DNA of 24,000 nucleotides from contig NZ_JBQMUL010000002.1 in NCBI RefSeq assembly GCF_052173275.1, positions 970,108-994,107 of the forward strand, written 5' to 3'. Positions 9,293-22,810 of the stretch are shown here, piece by piece. The position numbers and the translations under genes were made by a program. The notes beneath the pieces were generated by a model. That model saw nothing but the letters and a program-made list of their open reading frames with translations, searched no databases and was not told the origin of the DNA. Positions within the stretch are counted from its first letter, which is position 1, and the number at the start of each line of letters is the position of its first letter. The DNA comes from Methylophilus sp. Its GTDB lineage: Bacteria; Pseudomonadota; Gammaproteobacteria; Burkholderiales; Methylophilaceae.

Positions 9293-9319
9293 GCGGGGAG
9301 GAAAATTCAGGTGTTTTCC

Positions 9320-9349
9320 ATTATACGTCAGCCTGGCCCCGGCTGTCGT
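9320..9349 (-). promoter_or_regulatory. Candidate sigma70 promoter for the second MocR gene
   Basis: The minus strand reads ACGACA - 18 nt - TATAAT (perfect -10 at 9325..9320), about 28 nt upstream of the ATG at 9292. Confidence 0.4.
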
Positions 9350-9373
9350 TCTACGAATAGCGCGTCGTGCTGG

Positions 9374-9685
9374 CTAGGCGGTTTTCAAGACCTGCGAAAT
9401 TTCTTCGCCGCTGGTGGTGAGGGCAGCCACCAGACGGTCTTTTTGCATAGACACGTCAACAAGTTGTTGCTCATTGAGTGCCGTCATCAACCGTTGCACC
9501 GTACTCATGCGGATATCCAGCCGCTTGCAGATCACGGCGAGCGAAACCTGCGCGCGGCCTTCAGCATGCTCGGCATGCAGCAGCTCCAGGATACTCAGCA
9601 TCAGCACTGTGCTCCTGTCCAGCGGGGCATAGTCGGCAAACGCTTCTTCTACCGGCGCGTTCAAATAATCGTGATCAAGCAGCAC
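9374..9685 (-). CDS. Small winged-helix (MarR/IclR-N-like) DNA-binding protein
   Basis: 103 aa with an HTH-like segment (VSLAVICKRLDIRMSTVQRLMTALNEQQLV). The GTG start lies inside the last codons of the upstream oxidoreductase gene (11-nt overlap), implying co-translation. Confidence 0.5.
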   Translation of the reverse strand: MLLDHDYLNAPVEEAFADYAPLDRSTVLMLSILELLHAEHAEGRAQVSLAVICKRLDIRMSTVQRLMTALNEQQLVDVSMQKDRLVAALTTSGEEISQVLKTA

Positions 9686-11999
9686 GGGCCACCTCTGGTG
9701 CAGTGGTTTTCTCGAGGATCACCGGGATAGACTTAGAGGTAGGTGTGCGCGACCCATCGGCCACGCTTTCCAGCGGCACCAGGTTATTGGTTTCCGGGTA
9801 ATAACCACTCAGGCAGCCTTGCGGAATATCGTAAGACACCACCAGGAACTTGTCCGCGCGACGGGTGATGCCATCCTGCCAGACGCTGACCAGATTGACC
9901 CAGTCACCGGCCTCCAGCCCCATGCGCGCAATATCCACCGGGTTCATAAACACCACGCGACGCTGGCCGAACACGCCACGATAGCGGTCATCCATGCCAT
10001 AAATGGTGGTGTTGTACTGGTCGTGCGAGCGGGTGGTCATCAGCACAAACAGGCGGTCGCCATATTGCTCACGTGCCAGGTGGATAGGCGACTGGCTGGG
10101 GATCGCCTGCACCGTGAACTCAGCCTTGCCGGAAGGTGTTTTCCAGATACGCTCACTGGAAGGCACCGGCATGCGGAAGCCGCCCGGCGTCTTGATACGT
10201 TCGTTGTAATCCCTGAACGCCACCGGCATGGTGCGCTCTATCATGTCGCGGATCTTGCTGTAATCCTTGATCGCTTCCAGCCACGGCGTTTTGCTGTGCT
10301 TGAGCGTGGCATGCGCCAGGCGCGCCACAATGGCAGGCTCTGAAAGCAGATTCGGCGAAGCAGGTTTGTTGATGCCATAAGACACATGCACCATGCTCAT
10401 GGAGTCTTCAACGGTCACGCCTTGCGGCCCGGTTTCCTGGGTATCGATCTCAGTACGGCCCAGGCATGGCAGAATCAGGGCATCCTTGCCATGTACCAGA
10501 TGGCTGCGATTGAGCTTGGTGGTCACATGCGCGGTCAGGTCGCATTTGCGCATGCCTTCCCAGGTGCGGTCGGTGTCGGGTGTCGCAATCGAAAAATTGC
10601 CCCCCAGCCCAAAGAATACTTTGCCTTTACCATCTATCATGGCCTGGATGGCCGCTACGGCATCATAGCCAGGTGTCTTGGGCACCTTGATATCAAACAC
10701 GCGCTCCAGGCTTTCGAGAAACTCCAGTGGCATCTTTTCATAAATACCCACGGTGCGGTTGCCCTGCACATTGCTATGGCCACGCACCGGGCACAGGCCA
10801 GCGCCTTCCTTGCCAATATTGCCACGCAACAGCATCAGGTTGACCAGTGTTTTAATCGTGGCGACACCATGTTTGTGCTGGGTAATGCCCATGCCCCAGG
10901 TCGCGATCACGCGGTCACCAGTGGCATAAATACGCGCAAGTTCTTCGATCTGCGCCAAAGGCACGCCCGACTCTTCTACGATCAAATCCCAGTTTTCCTG
11001 GCGCGCATCGGCCGCAATCGCCTCAAAGTTGTTGGTGTGCTGCTCGATAAACTCCAGGTCGACCACGCGCTCGGCACCCTGCTTGATCGCTTCGTCATCC
11101 CACTGGATGATGAACTTGATCATGCCTTTGACCAGCGCCAGGTCACCTCCCAGTGTCGGCTGGATAAACAGGTCGCTGATCTTGCTGCCTTTGAAAGAAA
11201 GCATATCAAACGGGCTTTGCGGGTCGGCAAAGCGCTCCAGGCCACGCTCTTTCAAGGGGTTGATCGCCACAATGCGCGCGCCGCGTTTAGCGGCTTCGCG
11301 CAGCTCACCCAGCATGCGCGGATGGTTGGTGGCAGGGTTCTGGCCGAAGATCAGTATGGTGTCGGCATGCTCAAAATCATGCAGAGTCACCGAACCCTTG
11401 CCTATGCCCACGGTAGGCGGCAAGGCCATGCTGGTGGATTCGTGGCAAAGGTTGGAACAATCGGGGAAATTATTGGTGCCGAATTCACGCACGAATAACT
11501 GGTACAGAAAAGCCGCTTCATTCGCCGCACGGCCAGAAGTGTAAAAAATCGCCTCATTCGGGTCGGCCAGGCCGTTCAGGTGTGTCGCCAGCAGCTCAAA
11601 CGCACCATCCCAGGAGACTTCTTCATACTTGTCCGTCACCGCGTTATAGCGCATAGGGTGCGTCAAACGGCCTTCGTTCTCCAGGTCAAAATCGCTCCAG
11701 CCCATCAACTCGGTCACCGTGTGCTTGGCAAAAAACGCAGGCGGCGTGCGTTTGGCAGTCGCTTCAGCAGCCACGGCCTTGACGCCGTTTTCACAAAACT
11801 CAAACGTAGACGTGTGTTCCTTGTCCGGCCAAGCACAGCCCGGGCAGTCAAAGCCATCCGGCTGGTTTTGTGCAAGCAAAGTCATGATCCCCTTCACCGG
11901 GATCTTCTGCAGCGCGAGTTGCGCAGCCACTTGCTTCAACGCACCCCAACCGGCGGCTGGGTGGTGATAAGGCTTGATGGAGGCTTTTTGTTGCGACAT
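9675..11999 (-). CDS. FdhF/YdeP-family molybdopterin oxidoreductase (formate-dehydrogenase-alpha-like)
   Basis: 774 aa. It has an N-terminal Cys cluster (FDCPGCAWPD...FEFCENG), an active-site-like CSNLCHESTS and typical MopB-family blocks. There is a good RBS (TAGGAAAAATG). Confidence 0.8.
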   Translation of the reverse strand: MSQQKASIKPYHHPAAGWGALKQVAAQLALQKIPVKGIMTLLAQNQPDGFDCPGCAWPDKEHTSTFEFCENGVKAVAAEATAKRTPPAFFAKHTVTELMGWSDFDLENEGRLTHPMRYNAVTDKYEEVSWDGAFELLATHLNGLADPNEAIFYTSGRAANEAAFLYQLFVREFGTNNFPDCSNLCHESTSMALPPTVGIGKGSVTLHDFEHADTILIFGQNPATNHPRMLGELREAAKRGARIVAINPLKERGLERFADPQSPFDMLSFKGSKISDLFIQPTLGGDLALVKGMIKFIIQWDDEAIKQGAERVVDLEFIEQHTNNFEAIAADARQENWDLIVEESGVPLAQIEELARIYATGDRVIATWGMGITQHKHGVATIKTLVNLMLLRGNIGKEGAGLCPVRGHSNVQGNRTVGIYEKMPLEFLESLERVFDIKVPKTPGYDAVAAIQAMIDGKGKVFFGLGGNFSIATPDTDRTWEGMRKCDLTAHVTTKLNRSHLVHGKDALILPCLGRTEIDTQETGPQGVTVEDSMSMVHVSYGINKPASPNLLSEPAIVARLAHATLKHSKTPWLEAIKDYSKIRDMIERTMPVAFRDYNERIKTPGGFRMPVPSSERIWKTPSGKAEFTVQAIPSQSPIHLAREQYGDRLFVLMTTRSHDQYNTTIYGMDDRYRGVFGQRRVVFMNPVDIARMGLEAGDWVNLVSVWQDGITRRADKFLVVSYDIPQGCLSGYYPETNNLVPLESVADGSRTPTSKSIPVILEKTTAPEVARAA

Positions 12000-12147
12000 T
12001 TTTCCTACTTGCTTGCGAATAAAGGCTGGGGGCTGGTTAAAGCAGAACAGCGAATAACTACGGATTGAGGATTACAGCCATGCTAAGACAGCCAGCGCAA
12101 GGAAAACAGATACAAAAGCGGGGAATTTTTAGAGTACAGTTAGCAGG

Positions 12148-12265
12148 TGATCTGAGGGAGATCAATAAGCAACATATTGATATTTAAGAAAAATCAAATA
12201 CTACCGAAAACAATTTAATATCAATGAACTTAATTTATTGTGGGAAGATAGTAATAGATCAATAT
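12148..12265. promoter_or_regulatory. AT-rich control region with a palindrome and an ATCAAT hexamer array
   Basis: The palindrome TGATCT-N5-AGATCA spans 12148-12164. Exact ATCAAT occurs on the + strand at 12161, 12220 and 12258, and on the - strand as ATTGAT at 12177-12182. A variant ATCAAATA is at 12193. All lie within about 105 bp upstream of the GGDEF-EAL gene. Confidence 0.3.
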
Positions 12266-12283
12266 TAAATATTCATTCATTTT

Positions 12284-14359
12284 ATGGAAAATATTAAAAA
12301 ACAAAATATTGAAAGCAACCAATACATCCAGACCCTGATCGATAATTTTCCATTCATGGTCTGGCTCAAGGATGCGAACAGCCGCATCCTGGTGGCGAAT
12401 ACTGCCTATGCCAATATGGTGGGCGTCTCTTCAAGTGCCGAACTGATAGGCAAGACCGATTTTGATTTTTTCCCGCCCGATCTGGCGCAGGAATATGTCG
12501 ATGGCGACAAAAAAGCCATGCTCAGCACCTCACCCAGCCCAGTCACCGTGCCGATTAAAAATGCAGAAGGCGAGTATTACTGGATAGAGTCTTATAAATC
12601 TGCCGTGGTGGTCAATGGCAAAGTGGTGGGTTCGCTGGGTTACGCCAGGGATGTCACCGAAGATATCCAGAAAGAGCACGAGTACAAATCCATCGTAGAA
12701 AACTCGTCCAATTGCATCGCCAAGTACAACAAGGACTGCGAGCGCATCTTCCTCAACAATGCCAACTCTTCATTTTATGAAGTGAATGCCAGCAGCCTGC
12801 TAGGCAAAACGCCCTCGCAATATCCAGGTGGCGCATCCGCGATAGCGCTGGAGCAAAGCATACGTGAAGTGTTCCAAAGCGGCGAGAACCAGCATGTCGC
12901 CTTCAGGCTCACCACAAAAAACGGCAAGCACAAGATCATGGATACCGTGCTAACGCCGGAATTCAACGCCATCCACGAAGTCATCGCCGTCATCGCCATC
13001 GGGCAGGATATGACGCAGTCGTATGAAAACCTGGACCGCATCAATAATCTGGCCTATTTTGATTCCATCACCAAACTGCCCAACCGCATCTCGTTGCTTG
13101 AGGTACTGGATCACTGCATCAAACAATCGCAGCAGTCAGCATCCTCATTTGCGTTTCTAATGCTGGACCTGGATGGTTTCAAAGCCGTCAACGATCTACT
13201 CGGGCACGCAGAAGGTGACTTGCTGCTCTACGAAATGGCGAGACGCATTGAACGGGCAGTGCGCCCTACCGATACCGTTGCCCGCCTGGGTGGTGACGAA
13301 TTTGCCATCGTGCTGACAGAAGTCAAAGACCCTAAAAATGCCGGCATCGTCGCCAAAAAAATCTTGGAGGCGATCAAACAACCTATCCTGATCCGCGGCA
13401 CCGAACTGTTTATTTCGGCCAGCATAGGCCTGGTCATTTGCCCCGACCACAGCAGTGACGTCAGTGATATTGTGAAATATTCCGATATCGCCATGTACAA
13501 AGCCAAAAAGCACGGCCGCAACAACTACCAGTTTTATTCGTCCGACCTATCGCAAACCACCATTGAACGCATAGACATCGAACGCTCGTTACGCACCGCC
13601 CTGCAAAACGATGAGTTCCTGCTGCACTACCAGCCGCAGGTCAATTTAGAGACCAACAAAATCGTCGGCGTAGAAGCCCTGCTCAGATGGCACCGCAACC
13701 ACAACGAAATGATCCCTCCCAACCGGTTTATCGGCATCGCAGAAGATTCAGGCTTCATTATCGAGATCGGCGAGTGGATCATGCAAACGGCGTTTAAAGA
13801 TGCCGTCAGATGGAACACGGGCCGCACAGACCCTATCAGCGTCGCCATCAACTTGTCCAGCCGCCAGTTTATCCATAACAACCTGCTCAACTCCATCAAG
13901 CACCTGTTAAAGAAAACTCACTGCAACCCGGCATGGATCACCCTGGAAATCACCGAAAGCCTGCTCCTAAGCGACAGCCTGCATATCCGAAAAACCCTGA
14001 AAAGCCTGGATAGCCTGGGCTTCAGAATCTCCCTCGATGACTTCGGCACCGGCTATTCAGCGCTCAGTTATTTAAACAAATTCCCCGTCAGTGAAATCAA
14101 AATTGATCAGTCATTTGTGCAAGGCATTGCAGATAACAACGACCACAGGCTGATTGTGCAGGCGATTATTTCAATGGCGAAAAGCTTGGGTAAAGAACTG
14201 GTGGCAGAAGGGGTGGAGACGGCAGAACAGGCTAAGTATCTACTAGACTGTGACTGCAAAGTGGTGCAAGGCTTTTACTTTAGTAGACCTAAGCCGTTTG
14301 ATGAAATTGATATGAAAGCATCGTGGGAAACTGCTATTAAAGAAAATAAATCTAGTTAG
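12284..14359 (+). CDS. PAS-PAS-GGDEF-EAL c-di-GMP signalling protein
   Basis: 691 aa with two PAS-like regions. It has an intact GGDEF (RLGGDEF) with an RxxD I-site 5 residues upstream (RPTD). The EAL-domain motifs are intact (EALLRW, DDFGTGYS, EIKIDQSF, AEGVET, QGFYFSRP). Confidence 0.9.
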   Translation: MENIKKQNIESNQYIQTLIDNFPFMVWLKDANSRILVANTAYANMVGVSSSAELIGKTDFDFFPPDLAQEYVDGDKKAMLSTSPSPVTVPIKNAEGEYYWIESYKSAVVVNGKVVGSLGYARDVTEDIQKEHEYKSIVENSSNCIAKYNKDCERIFLNNANSSFYEVNASSLLGKTPSQYPGGASAIALEQSIREVFQSGENQHVAFRLTTKNGKHKIMDTVLTPEFNAIHEVIAVIAIGQDMTQSYENLDRINNLAYFDSITKLPNRISLLEVLDHCIKQSQQSASSFAFLMLDLDGFKAVNDLLGHAEGDLLLYEMARRIERAVRPTDTVARLGGDEFAIVLTEVKDPKNAGIVAKKILEAIKQPILIRGTELFISASIGLVICPDHSSDVSDIVKYSDIAMYKAKKHGRNNYQFYSSDLSQTTIERIDIERSLRTALQNDEFLLHYQPQVNLETNKIVGVEALLRWHRNHNEMIPPNRFIGIAEDSGFIIEIGEWIMQTAFKDAVRWNTGRTDPISVAINLSSRQFIHNNLLNSIKHLLKKTHCNPAWITLEITESLLLSDSLHIRKTLKSLDSLGFRISLDDFGTGYSALSYLNKFPVSEIKIDQSFVQGIADNNDHRLIVQAIISMAKSLGKELVAEGVETAEQAKYLLDCDCKVVQGFYFSRPKPFDEIDMKASWETAIKENKSS

Positions 14360-14380: not shown

Positions 14381-15310
14381 TTATTTCTTACCTTCATAAG
14401 CATCGACAATAAAAGCCTTAGCCTTTTCTAAATCGTCAAAGGTTGAAATAGTAAATTCAATGTCACCTGTACCCCAATGTCCTATTTCGCGAACATCACG
14501 AAAATTGTCAGGGAAATTTGAATATGCTGAAGGATTAAGATGTAAAAACAGAAGAATCTTGTTTTTCTGTAACACTACTGTGGCGAAATTCTTAATGCGC
14601 TTGAAAGCAGAATAAAGCTTGAGCTCTTTCTTTTCAATATCATCACCCAAGGAAAAAATATACTCTTCAAGTGAAGATAACACCTGCATCAATTCAGGTG
14701 ACAAATCGACGATCCATTCCGCATAACTCTTATCACCGGTCTTAGTAAGCTTGGTTCCAGCTAAAACTTTGGCTGTTTTTGGGCTAATCTTATTGCTTTG
14801 ACCTGCCGAGGTTGAGTTCACCAATTCAAACAACAGCAAATCATCTTCAAATAATCTGTAGCGGATTAGCTGTATTTCGCGATTCATTTGCTGAACAGCA
14901 TGAGCATCATACTTCGTAAAATCTCCAGCAATACAGACTAAACGTGGTTGTGACCAATCGATGGTATCAGAAACTAACTGACCATACTTTTTCATGACCA
15001 AGAGTTCAAACTCAGCTTTATGATCCATTAACCAATCTAAATAAAATAAACCTTGGTTAATGACATTTTCGCCCGTCGAACGCTTGTATTCCAAAATCAC
15101 TGGACTACCATTTTCATCAATGCCTAAGCTATCAATGCGTCCAGCGTGGGTTTTGCCAGTTGAATATTCTGTTGCTAGAAATCTGACCCCTAATAATGTT
15201 TCTAGATTTGTTTCTATTAATGTTTGCAATGGCTTTTCAAGGTCCGAGGCAGACCCTGTGAGCTCCGTCGCGGCTTGATTCTTTATTTTGAAAAGTTTTA
15301 TATCGCTCAT
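14381..15310 (-). CDS. NucS/DUF91-like PD-(D/E)xK nuclease-fold protein with DUF5655-like C-terminal domain
   Basis: 309 aa. The nuclease-fold motif set is E48 ... GRID60 ... E74-Y-K76 ... Q86xxxY90 (GRIDSLGIDENGSPVILEYKRSTGENVINQGLFY). The C-terminal block KLYSAFKRIKNFATVVLQKNKILLFLHL...VREIGHWGTGDIEFTI matches my memory of DUF5655. It is the last gene of the hsd operon, 13 nt after the hsdM stop. Confidence 0.6.
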   Translation of the reverse strand: MSDIKLFKIKNQAATELTGSASDLEKPLQTLIETNLETLLGVRFLATEYSTGKTHAGRIDSLGIDENGSPVILEYKRSTGENVINQGLFYLDWLMDHKAEFELLVMKKYGQLVSDTIDWSQPRLVCIAGDFTKYDAHAVQQMNREIQLIRYRLFEDDLLLFELVNSTSAGQSNKISPKTAKVLAGTKLTKTGDKSYAEWIVDLSPELMQVLSSLEEYIFSLGDDIEKKELKLYSAFKRIKNFATVVLQKNKILLFLHLNPSAYSNFPDNFRDVREIGHWGTGDIEFTISTFDDLEKAKAFIVDAYEGKK

Positions 15311-15323
15311 GCTTAACCTGTTG

Positions 15324-16931
15324 TTAAGGTATCAAGGGTAAACCCAGTTCTTTCAAAAATTCGTTATGGCGTGTTTTGGCTTCATTAACTTTTTCTTCCG
15401 CAGCCAATAAATCTGCATTCACTTTCAGCAAGTCAATTGCCTGCTCGGCAACAGAGGTGCTGATGTACCGCGAGATATTCAGGTTGTAATCATTTTTCTC
15501 AATTTCTGCCATCGGAACACGGCGCGAGTAACGCTCTATTTCATTGCGATATTGATAGGTGCTAACAATCTGGTCGATCTGATTTTCCAGCAAGCGGTTT
15601 TGGCGTTTGCCCTTTTCAAAATGCTCGGCGGCGTTAATAAACAACACATCATCTGGCTTTTTGCAGCGCTTAAGCACCAAAATACACACTGGGATGCCCG
15701 TGGAATAAAACAGGTTGGCAGGCAAGCCTATCACGGTATCAATATGCCCATCTTTAAGCAGCTTAGTGCGTATGCGCTCTTCTGCGCCGCCACGGAATAA
15801 CACACCGTGCGGCAAAATAATCGCCATCACGCCACTCTCACTCAAAAAGTGAAAGCCATGCAGTAAAAAGGCAAAGTCTGCTGCAGATTTTGGCGCAAGG
15901 CCATAATTGGCAAATCTAAAATCTTTGCTCATTTCCTCGGTGGGTTCCCAGCGCAAACTAAAAGGTGGGTTTGCCACAATCGCATCAAACTCTACCTTAT
16001 TAGCTGGGTTGCGCTCATTGAGCATGGGCCATTCGTTATCTAGCGTGTCACCGTGAAAAATCTCAAACTCGGTATCTTTCACACCATGCAACAGCATGTT
16101 CATTCGCGCCAGGTTATAGGTGGTGATGTTTTTTTCTTGCCCGTAAAACTTGCCAATCCCATGTTCGCCCAACTGATGGCGCACATTCAGCAACAGCGAG
16201 CCAGAGCCACAGGCAAAATCCAGCACGCGTTCTATTTTGGTTTTTTTGCCTAGTGTTGGATCTTGGCTATCCAACGTCACAATGCGAGAGAGTATGGTCG
16301 AGATTTGTTGCGGGGTATAAAACTCCCCAGCCTTTTTACCAGAGCCAGCGGCAAATTGCCCAATCAAATACTCATAAGCATCGCCCAACACATCGCTACT
16401 GGTAGAAAAGTGTGCGATACCTTCGGCAATTTTAGTGATAATCGTGCACAGCTTGGCATTGCGGTCGGTGTGTGTTTTGCCCAGCTTTTCTGAGTTGAGA
16501 TTAATCTCAGAAAACAAGCCTTGGAAGGTGCTGTTGAATGACTCATTTTCAATGTAATCAAAACCCTTATCTAATGTTTCTAGCAATACTGTGTCTTGTA
16601 GCCTTGCCTGCTCAGCAATGTTGCGCCATAGATACTGCGGCTGAATCACATAATGCAGCTTACGGCGCATCTGCTTTTCAAACTCTAAATAGTCTTCTAA
16701 ATTCAGCTCATACCACTCGGTTAAAGGTGACCTTTTGTCATCTTTATCAAGTGTTGGATAGTCAGAACCTAGTTCCTTTTTTGCTGCAACCTCGTAGTTA
16801 TCTGAGAGGTAACGTAAGAACAAAAACGAGAGCATGTAGTCACGGAAATCGTCCGCGTTCATCGCGCCGCGCAATTGGTCAGCAATGCCCCATAGGGTTT
16901 TACCGAGTTGATTTAATTCTTCTTGAGTCAC
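15324..16931 (-). CDS. hsdM: Type I restriction-modification system, DNA methyltransferase subunit M (N6-adenine)
   Basis: 535 aa with an HsdM_N-like N-terminus (LWGIADQLRG), AdoMet motif DFACGSGSLLL and catalytic NPPF (IVANPPFSLRW). The GTG start lies 3 nt after the upstream stop. Confidence 0.95.
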   Translation of the reverse strand: MTQEELNQLGKTLWGIADQLRGAMNADDFRDYMLSFLFLRYLSDNYEVAAKKELGSDYPTLDKDDKRSPLTEWYELNLEDYLEFEKQMRRKLHYVIQPQYLWRNIAEQARLQDTVLLETLDKGFDYIENESFNSTFQGLFSEINLNSEKLGKTHTDRNAKLCTIITKIAEGIAHFSTSSDVLGDAYEYLIGQFAAGSGKKAGEFYTPQQISTILSRIVTLDSQDPTLGKKTKIERVLDFACGSGSLLLNVRHQLGEHGIGKFYGQEKNITTYNLARMNMLLHGVKDTEFEIFHGDTLDNEWPMLNERNPANKVEFDAIVANPPFSLRWEPTEEMSKDFRFANYGLAPKSAADFAFLLHGFHFLSESGVMAIILPHGVLFRGGAEERIRTKLLKDGHIDTVIGLPANLFYSTGIPVCILVLKRCKKPDDVLFINAAEHFEKGKRQNRLLENQIDQIVSTYQYRNEIERYSRRVPMAEIEKNDYNLNISRYISTSVAEQAIDLLKVNADLLAAEEKVNEAKTRHNEFLKELGLPLIP

Positions 16932-16934
16932 TGG

Positions 16935-18014
16935 TTATTCCGCATGTAAAACAAACTTATATTTTTCTATTAGCCTATCAAATATCTCTATAAAAATAGA
17001 TTTATTATCTGGCTGCATAATATCAGATTGATGGTAATAGATTTTCTGATGAGATAGGGTGTTGACGATAGTTGCTACTCTATCTTTATCCGCTATACCA
17101 ATTTGCTCCAAGACATAGGAAAACTGACCGACCCCCAAAAAAGAAGCAATATTCTCAAGTGCTTGTCGTAGCAATGCAAAATGATAGGTATAAAGCTGTC
17201 CATCTTTTGCTTGTTGCAATAACTTCATGAGTTGTAAATGATACAAAAGCACATCATTTCTTGTGCTTTCTAAAGAGAGCTCATCAGCATTACGACTCAA
17301 AATATACATCTGATACTTATTGTTGTTACGCTCTTTGAACTGACTAGCTTTTTCACCTTTCGTGATCCAATCACTTAAAATCGAAAACAAGCCTAAGTGA
17401 TGGGTTGTAATAATTATTTTTCTATTTTTGAAGTGCTTATCTATTAACTCAAACAATGTAAAAGCTGTAACGAAAATATTATGGTCATCTAAACTTGAAA
17501 CAGGGTCGTCTATAAAGAAATGTTTTGATTGCTTATCTGCCCAGCCTTCAACCTCAAACAATGCTAAAAATAAACACCAAACAAAAATACGCTCCTCACC
17601 TCTTGAGATCTTAATTGGTGTCTCACTATCCCCTTTTACATAGAAAGTGACCGCATCAATACCAAGTTCGGGATTTTCATTTGTATTAAAGTAAAAGTCA
17701 TATCTTGGCTGATATGGTGCTAATTTCGCATTTACATCCTCTTCAGTGATTGAGGAATGTAGTCTATTTAAACTACTTCTCTTGACCTCAAGCTTAATAT
17801 TCTGTTCGTTGTTTTCATTATCATTATCCCAAACGAAGAGGTCCTCGCTAAAGGCATTGTAATAAACCCCTTCATGTTCGCCACTATCAGCATTTTTGCT
17901 AACATTTTTATAGGCTACAGATAATCTTGTTTTCCCCGTTGCGTTAAAGGCATAAACAAGAATGATATTTTTTTCTGATTGATAAAGCTGTGTGGCAACT
18001 TGCTCTAAATTCAT
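16935..18014 (-). CDS. PrrC-like AAA_13/ABC-type ATPase, putative anticodon nuclease
   Basis: 359 aa. The motifs are Walker A A22FNATGKT29, ABC-signature-like S137RGE, Walker B FFIDD170, D-loop SSLD176, H-loop TTHH206, and a C-terminal R283-x3-E287 ... H322 triad-like pattern. It sits between hsdS and hsdM with an ATGA overlap to hsdS. Confidence 0.6.
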   Translation of the reverse strand: MNLEQVATQLYQSEKNIILVYAFNATGKTRLSVAYKNVSKNADSGEHEGVYYNAFSEDLFVWDNDNENNEQNIKLEVKRSSLNRLHSSITEEDVNAKLAPYQPRYDFYFNTNENPELGIDAVTFYVKGDSETPIKISRGEERIFVWCLFLALFEVEGWADKQSKHFFIDDPVSSLDDHNIFVTAFTLFELIDKHFKNRKIIITTHHLGLFSILSDWITKGEKASQFKERNNNKYQMYILSRNADELSLESTRNDVLLYHLQLMKLLQQAKDGQLYTYHFALLRQALENIASFLGVGQFSYVLEQIGIADKDRVATIVNTLSHQKIYYHQSDIMQPDNKSIFIEIFDRLIEKYKFVLHAE

Positions 18015-19261
18015 TGTTCAATGGCCTGCGAATCAATTGCCTTTGGGAAAAGCTGCTGCATTAAGCCTTTTTTGTGCTCTCTTAAGGATTCTAGTTTTTT
18101 AATTTGACTAGTGACTGCATCATCAATTGAGGTTAAGCAGTTAGCAATTCTTTTTTGCTCAGCATAGTCAGGCAACGGTAACAATTTCTCAGAAAATTGA
18201 AAAAAGGAAACCATTTTCCCATCTCTTATTCCCTCTATATTTTTGTTAAGGTCACGTATAAATAAATCTGTTTTGAAGTAATATTTAAAAAACAAGTCAA
18301 ATACTTCTATTTTCTTACGCAAAATAATATACGCGGGACTACAAATACCTTTGTAATTTGAGTATTCAATACCTCCCTGAAAAGACCTGAGACTTATAAT
18401 GAAGTCACCAACCTCAACTATTTTATAACTTTCAATACTTTGTTCTGTTGCAATGACTTTGTAATCAATTAGCTCCCGAGGAATTGCCCCATGTTCTTGG
18501 CTGATAGCTAAAATGGGTAAGTCTGAATTGTGTTTTTTGTTGCTTATTGGTTCGAAAATTTTATCTCCGTTCAAAAACGCCCACTCTCCATCTTCCTCAA
18601 ACTCAGAAAAACGAAGTTTGGGGACGGTTTTACCTTCAGCGGGGAAAAGTTGTTGCATCATGCCTTTTTTGTATTTTTTTAAGGCTTCAACTTTTTGGTT
18701 TTGTACGGTGATTAAATCATCAAGTGATGACAGGCAATCGGCAATTTTTTGTTGTTCTTTTGGTTCTTTGGGAACGAAAAATTTATATTTCAAAAATTTA
18801 CTGCCGTTTATTGAGTTGATTGTTGCACCTAAGTCAGCATCAACTTGGTCTTGATACGAATCTGTTTGAAACAACTGATAGACAAATTTTGCTATTGGCG
18901 AGCGAAAAACTGTCATGAATGCGCCATGTGTGCATAGCGACATTCCATCTGGTATTAACGCATTTTTTCCAATCAGTGCTTTTGAGCCATTCCTAACACA
19001 AATCAAAATATCATTTGGTTTTGCTAAGTTAGCGCCTTTAATGCTCGGCGTCACATAAACGTTATCATCAAGCGAGATTTGACCATTTTGGACGTTTGAT
19101 GATCTTAGAACTAACAAGCCACTCTCACGAACATCTTCAGGGCTATAAGTTAAACCTGAAACAAGTTTACCTAATTGATTCAGTTCTTGAGGTTTCCATT
19201 CACTGACATCTCTAAACTCAGGAAACCGCAATTTAGGCACTAATTTAATTTTCTCACTCAT
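18011..19261 (-). CDS. hsdS: Type I restriction-modification system, specificity subunit S
   Basis: 416 aa with the classic two-half architecture. PKLRF(P/S)EF..EW opens each target-recognition domain. Each half closes with a conserved helix, QQKIADCLSSLDDLI...KKGMMQQLFP in the first and QKRIANCLTSIDDAV...KKGLMQQLFP in the second. Confidence 0.95.
   Translation of the reverse strand: MSEKIKLVPKLRFPEFRDVSEWKPQELNQLGKLVSGLTYSPEDVRESGLLVLRSSNVQNGQISLDDNVYVTPSIKGANLAKPNDILICVRNGSKALIGKNALIPDGMSLCTHGAFMTVFRSPIAKFVYQLFQTDSYQDQVDADLGATINSINGSKFLKYKFFVPKEPKEQQKIADCLSSLDDLITVQNQKVEALKKYKKGMMQQLFPAEGKTVPKLRFSEFEEDGEWAFLNGDKIFEPISNKKHNSDLPILAISQEHGAIPRELIDYKVIATEQSIESYKIVEVGDFIISLRSFQGGIEYSNYKGICSPAYIILRKKIEVFDLFFKYYFKTDLFIRDLNKNIEGIRDGKMVSFFQFSEKLLPLPDYAEQKRIANCLTSIDDAVTSQIKKLESLREHKKGLMQQLFPKAIDSQAIEQ
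18045..18101. repeat. HsdS conserved-region repeat, copy 1 (C-terminal helix coding)
   Basis: About 80% identical by hand alignment to 18642-18698, which lies 597 bp (199 codons) away (GGGAAAAGyTGyTGCAT..GCCTTTTTTGT..TTAAGG). Confidence 0.8.
18642..18698. repeat. HsdS conserved-region repeat, copy 2 (central helix coding)
   Basis: This is the partner of 18045-18101. Internal direct repeats are typical of hsdS genes and are substrates for TRD shuffling. Confidence 0.8.
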
Positions 19262-22200
19262 ATGCCGCCAACCCCGAAATCTCTCTGCCTTGCGCTTGTT
19301 TTTTGAGCAGTGGCACCATATCTTCCATCAAAGCGAGCTCTTTTTGTGTACGAGCCTTCCAGCCAAGATCTTGCTCGGTAAATAGTTCACTGAGTTTGTC
19401 ACCGTCAAAAATCATGCGGTTTAAAATACCATTCACAAAGGCTTTGAGTTTTTCGAGTGTCAAGCCATGTTTCTTCGCTACTTCTGCCAACGCTTTGTTA
19501 TTCTTCTCGGCTTTAAAACGTTGTAAATCTTGGCCTATTTGTTGGTCTGTCATCACCTCACCGACTGGCAGGCTGTTGATAAATTCGATGATGGCGTCTT
19601 GCTCGTCCATCATATTAGAGTGAGATCGGATATAGTCCACCAACTGCTGGCGGGTCATTTTTTGTTTGTTGCTGTCCACCTGCGTCGATTTAGCAATCAG
19701 GCTCATGATGTAGTCGTAATCAATCACCGCCGAGGCAAACAGCACCAGTTCTAAATCAAGTTGTTCCAGATTAGCTTCGTCGACATAGCTCGCTCTTTCT
19801 TGCTCCACTTTGTTCGGGTTGGTGACTTCTTGCTGAGTTTTGAGTTGTTGGGCGGTTTCAATATAGCGGCCTCTAAAACTGCGCAAGGTGACTTCGGGCA
19901 TGAGTTGCTCGATAGTGTGTTTGTGCTCTTCTGTGAGGTCAGTGTATTGGTCGAGCTGAGTTTTAAAGCGCTGCACCTCTTTAAAGTGGTTGATAAAGCC
20001 CATTTTGGCGTTATTGCCTTTGAGGTTGCTCACTTGCTCTGGCGCACAGTCTAGGCCTTGTTTTTCCATAAATTCACCCAACTTGGTCACAGCGCTCTGC
20101 AATTTTTCGATCACTTTAGGCGCAGGGTCTACCAGCCAGATTTCACGCGCGCTGGCTTCGTCTTGTTTGCCAGAAAATAATTTAATGGCCGCATCGACTT
20201 CGGTCTCTTGGCCTCTAAAGTCGAGAATATTGCCCCATGGTTTGGTGTCGTTAAGTACGCGGTTGGTGCGTGAAAACGCTTGAATCAGGCCATGATTTTT
20301 GAGGTTTTTATCCACATACAGTGTGTTGAGATATTTTGAGTCAAAGCCTGTGAGCAGCATATCCACCACAATCACAATATCGATTTTGTTTTTGTGCGGG
20401 TAATTGGCGTATTGGTGGTCTTTAATGCGCTTTTGCACATCCTGATAGTAGGCATCAAACTCGGTAATGGTGTGGTTAGTGCCAAACTGTTGGTTATAGG
20501 CCACCATGATTGCAATAAGCGCGGCTTTTTTCTCTTCGGGCGCTTGTTGGTTGTCTTGCTGCTCAGTGGGTAAGTCTTCTTGTAGCTGTTGCACCTCAAC
20601 ATTGCCTTGAGCGGGTGGTGAAAACACACAGGCAATATTGAGCGCTTTAAAGTTTGCATCTTCGGCTTGTTTTTGCGCCTGCATTTGCGCAAACACTTTG
20701 AAATACTCAATGGCGCTGTTGATGGACGAAGTCGCCAAAATGGCATTAAAGCGACGATGGTTCGTCGCGGCATCGTGCTTTGCAAAGATTTCGTTAATCA
20801 CGGCTTGCGGGATGGGTACCTCGCTCTTTTTGGGCTTTGTATCTTCGCCTTTGTTTTTGCCAAAATAATCAATATGAAAGCTGAGGACATTTTTGTCTTC
20901 AATAGCGTTGGTAATGGTGTAAGCGTGTAGCTCGCTCTCAAACAAATCTTGTGTGGTTTTAAACGAGCCGACATTGCCATCAACCTGCACAAAGCTGGAG
21001 TTGGCGTCAAAAATAGGGGTGCCGGTAAAGCCAAACATTTGCGCTTTGGGGAAAAACTCTTTAATAGCTTTGTGGTTTTCACCAAACTGCGAGCGGTGGC
21101 ATTCGTCAAAAATAAAGGCGACGCGTTTGTCGCGTAATGGCTCTAAGCGCTCTTTATAAGTGAGCTTGCCCTTTTGCACATTCACTTGATTACGCTTGCT
21201 ATTTTCATCCAGCGCCAAGCCTAATTTTTGGATGGTGGTGACAATCACCTTATCCGCATAATCTTCGGAAAGCAGGCGGCGCACCAAGGTCTCGGTGTTG
21301 GTGTTTTCTTCTACACAGCCTTCTTGAAAGCGGTTAAATTCTTCGCGTGTTTGGCGGTCGAGGTCTTTGCGGTCAACCACAAAAAGGCATTTTTCAATGT
21401 CTGGGTTATCTTTGAGCAGCGTAGAGGCTTTAAATGAGGTGAGCGTTTTGCCACTGCCTGTGGTGTGCCAGATATAGCCATTCCCACGATTTTGGTGGAT
21501 GCACTCGACGATCTTTCTAACCGCATAAATTTGATATGGGCGCATAACCATGAGTTTTTGCTCACTGGCGACCAGTACCATATAACGGCTTATCATTTGC
21601 CCCAAGGTACATTTGACTAAGAAGACATTTGCAAAGTCATGCAAGTGCGAGATTTTATGGTTTTGCTCATCTGCTAATTGATAAATAGGCAAAAAGCGTT
21701 CATCGGCATTAAAACTGAAATGCTCGTTTTTATTGTTCGCAAAATAAAGCGTATTGCTTTGGTTGCTGACAATAAACAACTGCATAAAACACAGCAAGGT
21801 ATTGGCGTAACCATTGCCTGGGTCATTTTTGTAATGGACGATTTGTTCGATGGCTTTGCGTGGGATGACTTCAAAAGTTTTAAGCTCGATTTGCACGGTA
21901 GGAATACCGTTAATCAGCAAAATTACATCATAACGATGGTGACTATTGTGCGTATTGCACCGTAGTTGATTGATGACTTCAAAGTCGTTTTTGCACCAAT
22001 CTTTGGTATTGACCAGTGTGTAATGCAGCGGCGTGCCGTCTTCACGCTGAAAATAGTTGGTTTCACGTAACCTTTTTGCTGCTTGATAGACATCAGGGGT
22101 GATAATTTCATCACGCAGCCGTGCAAACTCAGCATTGGTTAAGTTAACACGATTGAGTGCTTCAAATTTTTGACGAAAATTGGCTTCAAGAGACTCGCGG

Positions 22201-22286
22201 TCACGAATATCCGCACGATAAGCGTACTTAAGCTCTATGAGCTTTTGAATCAAGTCTTTTTCGATTTGACTTTCAGTCGCCAACAT
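19254..22286 (-). CDS. hsdR: Type I restriction-modification system, restriction/translocase subunit R (EcoR124-like, type IC-like)
   Basis: 1010 aa. It has an N-terminal PD-(D/E)xK motif (RYD120VILLINGIPTVQIE134LK136), helicase motif I HTTGSGKT and motif II FDECH. Its stop overlaps the hsdS start by 8 nt. Confidence 0.95.
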   Translation of the reverse strand: MLATESQIEKDLIQKLIELKYAYRADIRDRESLEANFRQKFEALNRVNLTNAEFARLRDEIITPDVYQAAKRLRETNYFQREDGTPLHYTLVNTKDWCKNDFEVINQLRCNTHNSHHRYDVILLINGIPTVQIELKTFEVIPRKAIEQIVHYKNDPGNGYANTLLCFMQLFIVSNQSNTLYFANNKNEHFSFNADERFLPIYQLADEQNHKISHLHDFANVFLVKCTLGQMISRYMVLVASEQKLMVMRPYQIYAVRKIVECIHQNRGNGYIWHTTGSGKTLTSFKASTLLKDNPDIEKCLFVVDRKDLDRQTREEFNRFQEGCVEENTNTETLVRRLLSEDYADKVIVTTIQKLGLALDENSKRNQVNVQKGKLTYKERLEPLRDKRVAFIFDECHRSQFGENHKAIKEFFPKAQMFGFTGTPIFDANSSFVQVDGNVGSFKTTQDLFESELHAYTITNAIEDKNVLSFHIDYFGKNKGEDTKPKKSEVPIPQAVINEIFAKHDAATNHRRFNAILATSSINSAIEYFKVFAQMQAQKQAEDANFKALNIACVFSPPAQGNVEVQQLQEDLPTEQQDNQQAPEEKKAALIAIMVAYNQQFGTNHTITEFDAYYQDVQKRIKDHQYANYPHKNKIDIVIVVDMLLTGFDSKYLNTLYVDKNLKNHGLIQAFSRTNRVLNDTKPWGNILDFRGQETEVDAAIKLFSGKQDEASAREIWLVDPAPKVIEKLQSAVTKLGEFMEKQGLDCAPEQVSNLKGNNAKMGFINHFKEVQRFKTQLDQYTDLTEEHKHTIEQLMPEVTLRSFRGRYIETAQQLKTQQEVTNPNKVEQERASYVDEANLEQLDLELVLFASAVIDYDYIMSLIAKSTQVDSNKQKMTRQQLVDYIRSHSNMMDEQDAIIEFINSLPVGEVMTDQQIGQDLQRFKAEKNNKALAEVAKKHGLTLEKLKAFVNGILNRMIFDGDKLSELFTEQDLGWKARTQKELALMEDMVPLLKKQAQGREISGLAAYE

Positions 22287-22363: not shown

Positions 22364-22810
22364 TTATTTATACAGAATAAAAACCCCTTGAAACTTAGAT
22401 GTTGCTTTTGATTCACTGATAATCTGTGCAGTGACTACAATTCTCGCCCTGCCCTTTTCCTCATAACTCTTTTTAAAACTATCCCAGTCATCCGCTGATT
22501 GAAAACTCGCCACACATTCAAAATCTGTTTTCACAGGCAATAGATAGTCGATCTCCTGGCGCTTGATCACCAGGTTACCTTTTAAGCCTGCTTGCTCGAT
22601 TTTTGACTGCACTAATGACCAGGCCGTGGTAATTGAAATGGCAGCAATGCTGCCACCAAATACGATATCGAGATGGTTTTTGTTCAGGGCATAATCGCCA
22701 TGCACGGTGATCTGATTTTCATCAATCTTGGTGATTTTTATCCCTAAGTTTTTGGTTTGCGGGATGAGTTTAAACAGAGTGTTTTGAAAGTTTTCTTCTA
22801 GCTGGCTCAT
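22364..22810 (-). CDS. Hotdog-fold thioesterase, YiiD C-terminal-domain-like
   Basis: 148 aa. The pattern NLGIKITKIDENQITVHGDYALNKNHLDIVFGGSIAAI... matches PaaI/YiiD_C-type thioesterases as I recall them. The RBS AGGA lies about 9-12 nt upstream. Confidence 0.55.
   Translation of the reverse strand: MSQLEENFQNTLFKLIPQTKNLGIKITKIDENQITVHGDYALNKNHLDIVFGGSIAAISITTAWSLVQSKIEQAGLKGNLVIKRQEIDYLLPVKTDFECVASFQSADDWDSFKKSYEEKGRARIVVTAQIISESKATSKFQGVFILYK

What the first reader, a model, noticed from the sequence alone, without database searches (positions are those of the whole stretch)
14381..15310. NucS-like PD-(D/E)xK + DUF5655-like protein as the terminal gene of the hsd operon, with unknown function
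Residues 48-90 form a complete restriction-endonuclease-fold motif set: E48, D60, E74-x-K76 and QxxxY at 86-90. The arrangement matches NucS/DUF91-type nucleases. The C-terminal 110 aa resemble the uncharacterised DUF5655 module. The gene lies 13 nt downstream of hsdM, and a 6-bp hairpin spans the hsdM stop and the spacer. It shares the low-GC composition of the operon. I know of no assigned role for a stand-alone nuclease of this type co-translated with a type I methylase. It could be a second DNA effector, a sensor of modified or unmodified DNA, or an anti-restriction-triggered backup.
Basis: partly seen in the sequence, partly recalled or inferred. Interest (0 to 1): 0.7.

Follow-up and report, generated by a model that had tools for sequence, protein, structure and literature searches.

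The report
R-M-linked NucS-type defence nuclease candidate
The last gene of this restriction-modification operon encodes a two-domain nuclease from a widespread family that is already listed as a candidate anti-phage gene (PADLOC PDC-S18) but has never been tested; it probably cuts foreign DNA on its own rather than serving the neighbouring methylase.

Summary
Window 14381-15310 (minus strand) encodes a 309-aa protein. It has a NucS-type PD-(D/E)xK nuclease domain (E48, D60, E74-x-K76, Q86, Y90), a disordered Lys-rich linker and a C-terminal DUF5655 domain. It is the last gene of a tight hsdR-hsdS-prrC-hsdM-X operon.

It is not new as a family. It matches PADLOC candidate PDC-S18 (E 4e-140) and corresponds to COG3586, a family already predicted to be a PD-(D/E)xK nuclease.

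The catalytic residues are kept in 35-38 of 40 distant homologues. Of 80 genome loci, 47 carry type I R-M genes within 10 kb, almost always upstream on the same strand. Six more carry type III R-M.

The link to HsdM is not specific. Copies 78-92% identical sit at the same chromosomal site behind unrelated R-M cassettes, and solitary copies exist. The same nuclease module occurs naturally fused to DUF4268, the C-terminal domain type of PDC-S11. PDC-S11 (Madara) was recently shown to be a modification-dependent restriction enzyme.

Best reading: an autonomous modular defence nuclease with DUF5655 as the sensor, possibly type IV-like. This is untested. The 6-bp hairpin is no better than chance. 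Interest is moderate.

The parts
14381..15310 (-). Gene X: 309-aa NucS-type nuclease + DUF5655 protein (PADLOC PDC-S18 / COG3586 family); last gene of the operon
   Evidence: ORF. Pfam NucS_C + DUF5655. PDC-S18 E 3.9e-140 over residues 1-307. An identical protein is annotated in a Methylophilus sp. MAG.
14801..15310 (-). Residues 1-170: PD-(D/E)xK nuclease domain of NucS/EndoMS type
   Evidence: pLDDT 82-97. Foldseek matches EndoMS 5gke, NucS 2vld, Shedu SduA 8ps5/8ti9 and the FokI cleavage domain. 54% identical (E 3e-70) to the N-terminal domain of the DUF4268 chimera P0245; the homology ends at the linker.
15041..15169 (-). Residues 48-90: catalytic motif set E48, D60, E74-x-K76, Q86-x3-Y90
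   Evidence: Kept in 35, 38, 35, 37, 36 and 37 of 40 homologues at 34-51% identity. Aligns to NucS D160/E174/K176/Q187/Y191.
14729..14800 (-). Residues 171-194: Lys/Thr/Ser-rich flexible linker
   Evidence: pLDDT below 50 at residues 172-190 in both models. Length and sequence vary among homologues.
14384..14728 (-). Residues 195-309: DUF5655 domain, the proposed DNA-binding or sensor module
   Evidence: Pfam PF18899. pLDDT 84-98. Fold resembles SPO1766 3dnx, YjbR 2fki (TM 0.51) and YdhG/DUF1801 2oc6. No profile similarity to DUF4268.
14462..14482 (-). Residues 277-283: conserved GHWGTGD loop of DUF5655
   Evidence: H278 in 35/40, G280 in 34/40, G282 in 38/40 divergent homologues. Its function is unknown; it is a candidate target for mutagenesis.
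15311..15329 (-). hsdM-X junction: 13-nt spacer with an AGG Shine-Dalgarno-like triplet and the 6-bp inverted repeat
   Evidence: Read directly from the sequence. Folding z-score -0.41, so not beyond chance. No promoter-like site lies between hsdM and X.
15324..16931 (-). hsdM, type I methyltransferase subunit
   Evidence: TIGR00497 hsdM 1e-114. Pfam N6_Mtase + HsdM_N.
16935..18014 (-). prrC-like anticodon nuclease embedded between hsdS and hsdM
   Evidence: PADLOC PrrC 1.2e-103. Pfam AAA_13.
18011..19261 (-). hsdS, specificity subunit
   Evidence: Pfam Methylase_S, two stretches. PADLOC Specificity_I 3e-104.
19254..22286 (-). hsdR, restriction subunit (EcoR124_C type); first gene of the operon
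   Evidence: TIGR00348 2e-113. Pfam HSDR_N, SWI2_SNF2, T1R_D3-like and EcoR124_C. A promoter-like site lies at 22350-22323 on the minus strand.

Best explanation
Gene X encodes an autonomous, modular defence endonuclease of the catalogued but experimentally untested family PDC-S18 / COG3586.

Shown:
- It has a NucS-type PD-(D/E)xK catalytic domain with a conserved active site, a flexible linker and a C-terminal DUF5655 domain.
- It is co-oriented with, and tightly packed behind, hsdR-hsdS-prrC-hsdM.
- Its family sits recurrently at the 3' end of R-M operons, or inside them, and next to other defence genes.
- The same nuclease module occurs in nature with other C-terminal modules.

Inferred:
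- DUF5655 is the substrate-recognition (sensor) module and the N-terminal domain is the effector that cuts DNA.
- The protein works independently of the particular R-M enzyme next to it and needs no methyltransferase of its own.
- The most likely specific mechanism is modification-dependent (type IV-like) restriction. This rests on analogy with two tested proteins built on a NucS-like nuclease: Madara/PDC-S11 (EVE-like sensor) and END-Mag (iEndoIII sensor). Under this model DUF5655 recognises a feature of phage DNA that host DNA lacks. Nuclease domains then pair and cut. This would cover phages that escape the type I enzyme by modifying their bases.

Rough confidence: about 0.75 that it is a defence nuclease with an exchangeable sensor; about 0.35 that the signal is DNA modification.
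For: Family: full-length match to PDC-S18. PDCs were defined by embedding in BREX, DISARM or type I R-M.

Active site: E48/D60/E74/K76/Q86/Y90 are conserved in 35-38 of 40 homologues at 34-51% identity. The fold matches EndoMS/NucS, Shedu and the FokI cleavage domain.

Context: of 80 species-level loci, 47 have type I genes within 10 kb (43 within 3 kb), 6 have type III R-M and 8 have Septu or Fic genes. In the 75 loci with gene calls, X lies downstream of hsd genes on the same strand in 34 and between hsdS and hsdR in 6, against 1 upstream and 1 on the opposite strand. In 12 loci the X start codon overlaps the preceding stop codon by 4 nt, whatever gene precedes it. Plasmids of Cupriavidus and Acinetobacter (the latter only 28% identical) carry hsdS-X-hsdR.

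Autonomy: copies 92% and 78% identical occupy the same chromosomal slot behind a fused M-S system or an MmeI-type enzyme. DNA homology to the 92% copy (L087) ends exactly at the X start codon. Four locus pairs have X 80-94% identical but HsdM only 25-29% identical. Solitary copies without any methyltransferase occur on Staphylococcus plasmids and in Janthinobacterium/Massilia chromosomes.

Modularity: P0245, P0267 and P0214 combine an X-type nuclease (54% identity, E 3e-70) with DUF4268, the C-terminal domain type of PDC-S11.

Precedents: Madara (PDC-S11) restricts T4 carrying glucosyl-hmC but not T4(C), and D63A abolishes its defence. A NucS-like nuclease fused to iEndoIII targets hypermodified phages.
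Against: No experiment exists for PDC-S18 or DUF5655: literature searches for 'PDC-S18' found nothing and for 'DUF5655' nothing relevant.

DUF5655 has no detectable relation to DUF4268 (hhalign probability 0.3%). It is also not a PUA/EVE-type fold. Its nearest structures (3dnx, YjbR, YdhG) have no established function. The modification-reader role is therefore pure analogy.

X and the neighbouring HsdM are partly co-inherited (Mantel r 0.46, p about 0.001), so a functional link to type I systems is not excluded.

Five of 40 divergent homologues lack E74 or another catalytic residue. Nineteen of 80 loci showed no R-M or defence gene with my limited query set, and some of those sit on truncated contigs.
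Confidence: 0.55

Rival explanations
1. A nuclease that senses DNA ends or DNA structure, in the manner of Shedu. DUF5655 and the linker would bind DNA generically or recognise free ends or ssDNA of invading or replicating DNA. The nuclease would then cut such substrates regardless of base modification.
For: Foldseek places the nuclease domain close to Shedu SduA (8ps5 E 2e-3; 8ti9). One homologue carries an N-terminal HIRAN domain (P0131). HIRAN is known, from general knowledge, as a module that binds DNA 3' ends. The nearest folds to DUF5655 include YjbR, which I recall being described as a putative DNA-binding protein.
Against: The domain order is the reverse of Shedu, and there is no DUF4263 hit. 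The only tested proteins with this nuclease type fused to a C-terminal sensor are modification-dependent. There is no direct evidence on the substrate.
Confidence: 0.2
2. A PrrC-like guard or backup of the type I enzyme. X would be held inactive by the Hsd complex and released when a phage anti-restriction protein disables that complex.
For: X lies immediately after hsdM and is probably co-transcribed with it. PrrC, the classic guard of a type I enzyme, sits in the same operon. X lies between hsdS and hsdR in 6 genome loci and in two plasmid lineages. X and HsdM are partly co-inherited.
Against: Near-identical X copies follow type I families that share only 25-29% HsdM identity, a fused M-S enzyme, MmeI-type, or type III systems. 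Solitary copies exist. A guard that binds its guardee should co-vary with it, yet X (median 64% identity) is far more conserved than HsdM (median 30%).
Confidence: 0.12
3. An addiction or toxin-like nuclease that stabilises the island, or a selfish passenger with no anti-phage role.
For: The gene is horizontally mobile. Methylophilus and Staphylococcus plasmid copies are 53% identical, and the gene is present on 40 plasmids. It sits exactly at the junction of exchangeable cassettes.
Against: No cognate antitoxin or immunity gene is conserved next to it. Solitary copies sit stably among core genes. The C-terminal swap pattern is typical of sensor-effector defence proteins.
Confidence: 0.06
4. 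A housekeeping DNA-repair enzyme of the NucS/EndoMS mismatch-repair type.
For: It shares the catalytic domain and motif with NucS.
Against: It lacks the NucS N-terminal mismatch-binding and dimerisation domain. The NCBIfam NucS equivalog model scores 28.8 bits against a cut-off of 216. Its distribution is patchy and horizontally transferred, in low-GC defence islands and on plasmids.
Confidence: 0.03

Closest known systems
PADLOC PDC-S18 (phage defence candidate; Payne et al. 2024, bioRxiv 10.1101/2024.01.29.577857); corresponds to COG3586 'predicted transport protein' and to Pfam DUF5655-containing proteins
   Same: Full-length HMM match, E 3.9e-140. The architecture is the same. It shows the same R-M-linked context that defined the candidates.
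   Different: Nothing structural differs; X is a member. The family is only a bioinformatic candidate. No activity, target or mechanism has been reported.
Madara / PDC-S11 (bioRxiv 10.64898/2026.09.05.749240), a modification-dependent single-protein restriction system
   Same: It has an N-terminal NucS-like PD-(D/E)xK nuclease, a linker and a C-terminal putative sensor. The catalytic Asp is essential (D63A there; the equivalent here is D60). It sits beside a methylation-based system (BREX there, type I here). PDC-S11 models hit X residues 4-97 (E 1.7e-8). Natural chimeras join an X-type nuclease to the PDC-S11 C-terminal domain type.
   Different: The C-terminal domain is DUF5655, not DUF4268 (described as EVE-like). 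There is no profile similarity between the two. The target of X is unknown.
END-Mag (NucS-like PD-DExK + inactive EndoIII; Yee et al. 2025, PMC12191111)
   Same: A NucS-like nuclease is used as the effector of a modular modification-dependent restriction enzyme, with the sensor domain exchanged between families.
   Different: The sensor there is an iEndoIII helix-hairpin-helix domain. X has DUF5655.
NucS / EndoMS mismatch endonuclease (PDB 2vld, 5gke)
   Same: The catalytic-domain fold and the D-ExK-Q-Y motif are shared.
   Different: X has no N-terminal mismatch-binding domain. It is not a housekeeping gene, it scores far below the NucS equivalog cut-offs, and it carries an extra DUF5655 domain.
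PrrC / EcoprrI (anticodon nuclease guarding a type I enzyme)
   Same: It is an accessory nuclease gene carried inside a type I hsd operon. A PrrC homologue is present in this very operon.
   Different: PrrC is an ABC-type ATPase RNase and is almost exclusively embedded in type I R-M. X is a DNA-type nuclease fold found with many R-M types and also alone.

Membership tests
PADLOC PDC-S18 / COG3586 | Full-length match to the family HMM | tested here: met
   PDLC04946 E 3.9e-140, residues 1-307; PDLC04945 E 8e-64. JGI names the homologues 'predicted transport protein', which is the name of COG3586.
PADLOC PDC-S18 / COG3586 | Found embedded in or attached to BREX, DISARM or type I R-M | tested here: met
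   Here X follows hsdM. 47 of 80 loci have type I genes within 10 kb, and 6 loci have hsdM-hsdS-X-hsdR.
PADLOC PDC-S18 / COG3586 | Anti-phage activity | not testable with these tools
   No published test was found.
Pfam DUF5655 (PF18899) | Domain match above the gathering score | tested here: met
   30.3 bits against 24 for the full protein; 33.3 bits for the isolated domain; up to 62.9 bits in homologues.
NucS / EndoMS | C-terminal PD-(D/E)xK catalytic domain with the D, ExK, Q and Y residues | tested here: met
   NucS_C 24.6 bits against 24. Residues map to NucS D160/E174/K176/Q187/Y191. Foldseek 5gke E 5e-5.
NucS / EndoMS | N-terminal mismatch-binding and dimerisation domain; whole-protein equivalog score | tested here: not met
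   X residues 4-100 align to NucS positions 113-204, so X begins where the NucS nuclease half begins. NF003270 scores 28.8 bits against a cut-off of 216.
Madara / PDC-S11 | NucS-like N-terminal nuclease with an essential catalytic Asp | tested here: met
   PDC-S11 models hit residues 4-97 (E 1.7e-8). D60 is conserved in 38/40 homologues. Whether it is essential was not testable.
Madara / PDC-S11 | C-terminal domain of PDC-S11 type (Pfam DUF4268 in the chimeras examined here; described as EVE-like for Madara) | tested here: not met
   X has DUF5655 instead. hhalign of DUF5655 against DUF4268 gives probability 0.3%.
Type IV (modification-dependent) restriction enzymes, as a functional class | Nuclease effector plus exchangeable sensor domain in one polypeptide | tested here: met
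   The same nuclease module is found with DUF5655, with DUF4268, or with an added HIRAN domain.
Type IV (modification-dependent) restriction enzymes, as a functional class | No cognate methyltransferase required | tested here: met
   Solitary copies lie among core or metabolic genes with no methyltransferase nearby.
Type IV (modification-dependent) restriction enzymes, as a functional class | Cleaves only modified DNA | not testable with these tools
   This needs phage or biochemical assays.
Shedu (SduA, DUF4263) | DUF4263 nuclease domain at the C-terminus with an N-terminal sensor | tested here: not met
   There is no DUF4263 Pfam hit. The similarity is at fold level only (8ps5 E 2e-3). The domain order is reversed.
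PrrC-type guard of type I R-M | Near-exclusive embedding in type I R-M and dependence on it | tested here: not met
   X is found with type III, MmeI-type and fused M-S systems, and alone. Dependence on the R-M enzyme was not testable.

The most novel reading that the evidence does not exclude
DUF5655 is a previously unrecognised reader domain for modified or otherwise non-self DNA. It is unrelated to PUA/EVE/SRA, iEndoIII or winged-helix sensors. PDC-S18 would then be a large new family of type IV-like restriction enzymes (at least 2,900 clusters at 50% identity) built on an exchangeable NucS-type nuclease module, carried at the ends of R-M operons to catch phages that evade methylation-based immunity.
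Probability: 0.3. Interest if true: 0.65.

Novelty: new member of a known kind. Interest (0 to 1): 0.4.

Why it matters
If the proposed mechanism holds, DUF5655 would be a new kind of DNA sensor domain. A very widespread, strongly conserved family would gain a function: it spans Pseudomonadota, Bacillota, Actinomycetota, Planctomycetota and others, and the Methylophilus and Staphylococcus plasmid copies are 53% identical. It would also show that R-M operons routinely carry a complementary nuclease on an exchangeable nuclease-plus-sensor design. The natural DUF5655 and DUF4268 versions of the same nuclease module provide a ready domain-swap experiment. As it stands, the gene is one more member of a family already flagged as a defence candidate, so the finding sharpens a hypothesis rather than revealing something unknown.

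Tried and rejected
- Hairpin as a regulatory element: rejected. RNA folding of 15296-15345 gives z = -0.41.
- Specific HsdM partnership: weakened by synteny breaks exactly at the X start codon and by pairs with high X but low HsdM identity. A Mantel test still shows partial co-inheritance (r 0.46), so it is not fully excluded.
- Homology between DUF5655 and DUF4268 (the PDC-S11/Madara C-terminal domain type): none found.
- Word-indexed search with the isolated C-terminal domain, meant to find other architectures: it returned only 23 mostly fragmentary hits and was uninformative.
- Profile search of PDB sequences: only a marginal NucS hit (E 0.4) and a spurious match to a designed protein.
- Several 'alternative C-terminus' representatives (P0140, P0170) look like frameshifted translations and were discarded.
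- One Pfam call failed because of a bad coordinate.
- The supplements of Payne et al. held as text contain no 'PDC-S18', 'DUF5655' or 'NucS'.
- Phage origin: rejected. Hits in 3 of 50,697 phage records and 25 of 2.9 million IMG/VR contigs; 9 of those 25 lie next to hsd genes.
- No tRNA gene was found in the window, and no integrase was noticed among its ORFs.
Full report
1. THE OBSERVATION

The ORF at 14381-15310 is on the minus strand. It starts with ATG and encodes 309 aa.

Pfam finds NucS_C at residues 27-99 (24.6 bits, cut-off 24) and DUF5655 at residues 205-306 (30.3 bits, cut-off 24). Both scores are marginal, so I looked for independent support:
- A profile of 40 divergent homologues aligns D60/E74/K76/Q86/Y90 to P. 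abyssi NucS D160/E174/K176/Q187/Y191.
- An AlphaFold model built on that alignment has mean pLDDT 90. It shows two compact domains joined by a disordered linker at residues 172-190.
- Foldseek places the N-terminal domain nearest to EndoMS/NucS (5gke E 5e-5; 2vld). Shedu SduA (8ps5, 8ti9) and the FokI cleavage domain follow.
- Ten divergent C-terminal domains all hit DUF5655, with scores up to 63 bits.

The gene is the last in a tight minus-strand operon:
- hsdR, 22286-19254, EcoR124_C type
- hsdS, 19261-18011
- a PrrC homologue, 18014-16935 (PADLOC E 1e-103)
- hsdM, 16931-15324
- X, 15310-14381

Junctions between successive genes are overlaps of 8 and 4 nt and gaps of 3 and 13 nt. A promoter-like site precedes hsdR, and none lies between hsdM and X. 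GC is 0.35-0.47 over the operon (0.39 at X), against 0.55-0.58 in the core genes.

The 6-bp inverted repeat at the hsdM stop codon exists, but the region folds no better than shuffled sequence (z = -0.41).

2. WHAT THE FAMILY IS

The identical protein is annotated as 'DUF5655 domain-containing protein' in a Methylophilus sp. MAG. JGI calls the homologues 'predicted transport protein', which is the name of COG3586. COG3586 was listed as a putative PD-(D/E)xK endonuclease family in 2005 and was seen then in a type I R-M cluster of Methanosarcina acetivorans.

PADLOC matches X full-length to PDC-S18 (E 3.9e-140). PDC-S18 is one of 145 'phage defence candidates' derived from genes embedded in BREX, DISARM or type I R-M systems. 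Searches for 'PDC-S18' and 'DUF5655' found no functional study.

The family is large. It has 2,924 clusters at 50% identity with E <= 1e-3, and 434 with E <= 1e-30. At least 594 species genomes carry close relatives.

It is also unusually conserved across phyla. The Methylophilus protein is 53% identical to copies on Staphylococcus plasmids.

In 40 full-length homologues at 34-51% identity, the catalytic residues are kept as follows: E48 in 35, D60 in 38, E74 in 35, K76 in 37, Q86 in 36 and Y90 in 37. Within DUF5655, Y233, N241 and the GHxGxG loop (H278, G280, G282) are similarly conserved.

3. CONTEXT

In 80 species-level loci with up to 10 kb on each side:
- 47 have type I genes within 10 kb. 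Of these, 43 are within 3 kb and 13 are directly adjacent.
- 6 have a type III Mod/Res pair.
- 8 have Septu (PtuAB) or SoFic genes. Several of these are on contigs cut just upstream.
- 19 showed nothing with my query set.

The arrangement is strongly directional. X is downstream of hsd genes on the same strand in 34 loci and between hsdS and hsdR in 6, against 1 upstream and 1 on the opposite strand.

Other cargo often lies between hsdS and X. Examples are Septu, Fic, Schlafen/AlbA_2, a YgjP-like peptidase and PDC-M07. In 12 loci the X start codon overlaps the preceding stop codon by 4 nt, whatever the preceding gene is.

Locus L030 repeats the hsdS-prrC-hsdM-X order of the window. Plasmids of Cupriavidus (54% identity) and Acinetobacter (28% identity) carry hsdS-X-hsdR. 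Staphylococcus plasmids carry X alone.

X is rare in phage collections. It appears in 3 of 50,697 phage records and 25 of 2.9 million IMG/VR contigs, and 9 of those 25 lie next to hsd genes. Bacillus phage G Gp54 has the same two-domain fold.

4. IS X TIED TO HsdM?

Mostly not.
- In a metagenome relative (X 92% identical), the slot between yiiD and the core genes holds a helicase-type R subunit, a fused M-S protein, two small genes and X. DNA homology to the window covers exactly the X gene and stops at its start codon.
- In Methylophilus methylotrophus (X 78% identical), X lies beside the same GGDEF-EAL gene. There it follows an MmeI-type enzyme, BrnT and a T5orf172 protein, and precedes RhuM and SoFic.
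- Across 31 loci with both genes, identities of X and HsdM are moderately correlated (Mantel r 0.46, p about 0.001). Fifteen of 19 pairs with X >= 80% identical also share a similar HsdM. Four pairs, however, have X 80-94% identical with HsdM only 25-29% identical. X (median 64% identity) is far more conserved than HsdM (median 30%).
- Janthinobacterium and Massilia carry X alone between RecQ, BacA, MFS and DeoR genes on one side and a dehydrogenase on the other. No methyltransferase is nearby.

Taken together, X usually travels with an R-M cassette. It tolerates exchange of that cassette, and it can exist alone.

5. MODULARITY AND PRECEDENTS

Representatives P0245, P0267 and P0214 have an X-type nuclease domain: PDC-S18 E 1e-85, and 54% identity to X residues 1-170 (E 3e-70), ending at the linker. 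Each is joined to DUF4268, which matches the C-terminal half of PDC-S11 models (E 1e-40). DUF5655 and DUF4268 show no profile similarity. Another relative adds an N-terminal HIRAN domain, and one has two DUF5655 domains.

PDC-S11 was recently named Madara. It has a NucS-like nuclease, a linker and an EVE-like C-terminal domain, and it lies next to BREX. It restricts T4 carrying glucosyl-hmC but not T4(C), and D63A abolishes its defence.

Independently, a NucS-like PD-DExK nuclease fused to an inactive EndoIII sensor (END-Mag) targets hypermodified phages. The authors of that study set out the modular model of nuclease plus sensor.

6. MECHANISM

Shown:
- An intact, conserved NucS-type active site.
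- A two-domain architecture with a flexible linker.
- Recurrent placement in the same operon at the 3' end of R-M systems and in defence islands.
- Exchangeable C-terminal modules.
- Existence without a methyltransferase.

Inferred:
- X is an autonomous defence endonuclease. DUF5655 selects the substrate and the NucS-type domains cut, probably after pairing as in NucS, Shedu and FokI.
- The most likely selectivity is for modified phage DNA. This would complement the type I enzyme, in the way Madara complements BREX and McrBC and Mrr complement EcoKI.

I put the general claim at about 0.75 and the modification-dependence at about 0.35.

The main rival is recognition of DNA ends or structure (0.2). 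It is suggested by the fold similarity to Shedu and by the HIRAN fusion. A PrrC-like guard role (0.12) fits the position of the gene, but it is hard to reconcile with partner exchange and solitary copies. Addiction or selfish roles (0.06) and housekeeping repair (0.03) are unlikely.

7. COMPARISON AND NOVELTY

X is a member of PDC-S18 / COG3586 (membership met).

It is not NucS. It has no N-terminal domain and scores 28.8 bits against a cut-off of 216. It is not Madara, because the C-terminal domain differs. It is not Shedu, because there is no DUF4263 hit and the domain order is reversed.

The gene is therefore a new member of an already catalogued, unvalidated candidate family. Its sister architecture has just been validated.

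What this analysis adds:
- The active site is conserved in distant homologues.
- X lies directionally at the 3' end of R-M operons.
- The upstream R-M cassette can be exchanged at the same chromosomal slot.
- Natural chimeras carry DUF5655 or DUF4268 on the same nuclease module.
- DUF5655 has a YjbR/YdhG-like fold.

8. VERDICT

Interest is moderate (0.4): a specialist would not be surprised, but the family is widespread, untested and now comes with a sharp, cheap experiment.

Noticed in passing
window 16935-18014 (-): A PrrC-type anticodon nuclease homologue (359 aa; PADLOC PrrC E 1.2e-103; Pfam AAA_13) is embedded between hsdS and hsdM. The operon therefore carries two accessory nucleases. 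Locus L030 has the same hsdS-prrC-hsdM-X order.
   Followed up: partly
window 14381-22286, compared with L084 and L087: The slot bounded by yiiD (22364-22810) and the GGDEF-EAL gene (12284-14359) behaves as a defence hotspot. Related Methylophilus-type genomes keep X there but replace the whole upstream cassette. One carries MmeI + BrnT + T5orf172 upstream and RhuM + SoFic downstream. The other carries a fused M-S system plus a Hypoth_Ymh protein. Homology to L087 breaks exactly at the X start codon.
   Followed up: yes
window 7844-14359, compared with L087: Relative to L087, the window has about 6.5 kb of extra sequence between X and the GntR/aminotransferase gene. It holds a second GntR-aminotransferase paralogue (7844-9292), a 774-aa oxidoreductase-like ORF (9675-11999, not annotated here) and the PAS-GGDEF-EAL gene.
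   Followed up: no
homologues P0176, P0191, P0251, P0254, P0266 (alignment A2): A subgroup of full-length family members has lost E74 (to K, S, Q or A) and sometimes E48, D60 or K76. They share a 'DIGF' motif. They may be catalytically inactive paralogues.
   Followed up: no
homologues P0131 and P0126; also P0193, P0195, P0210: Unusual architectures occur. P0131 is HIRAN + X-type nuclease + DUF5655 (644 aa). P0126 has tandem DUF5655 domains. P0193, P0195 and P0210 have an X-type nuclease followed by a short Lys-rich C-terminal segment with no Pfam match; by eye it might be a small helix-turn-helix.
   Followed up: partly
BFVD entry G3MBC4 (Bacillus phage G Gp54): A giant-phage protein of 296 aa matches the whole two-domain model (Foldseek E 4.9e-13, 13% identity). 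A few phages therefore encode the same architecture.
   Followed up: no
L018, L022, L023, L036, L041, L047, L090 and others: A Septu pair (PtuA/PtuB; PADLOC E 3e-170 and 1e-87) is repeatedly inserted between hsdS and X in type IB hsd operons. This gives a recurring hsdR-hsdM-hsdS-ptuA-ptuB-X string.
   Followed up: partly
L008, L010, L016, L025, L040: In Stenotrophomonas (L016, L025, L040) X lies immediately after guaA, the GMP synthase gene; in Caballeronia (L008, L010) guaA lies a few genes upstream of X. L016 and L025 have a type III R-M pair just beyond. guaA may flank an insertion site for this island.
   Followed up: no
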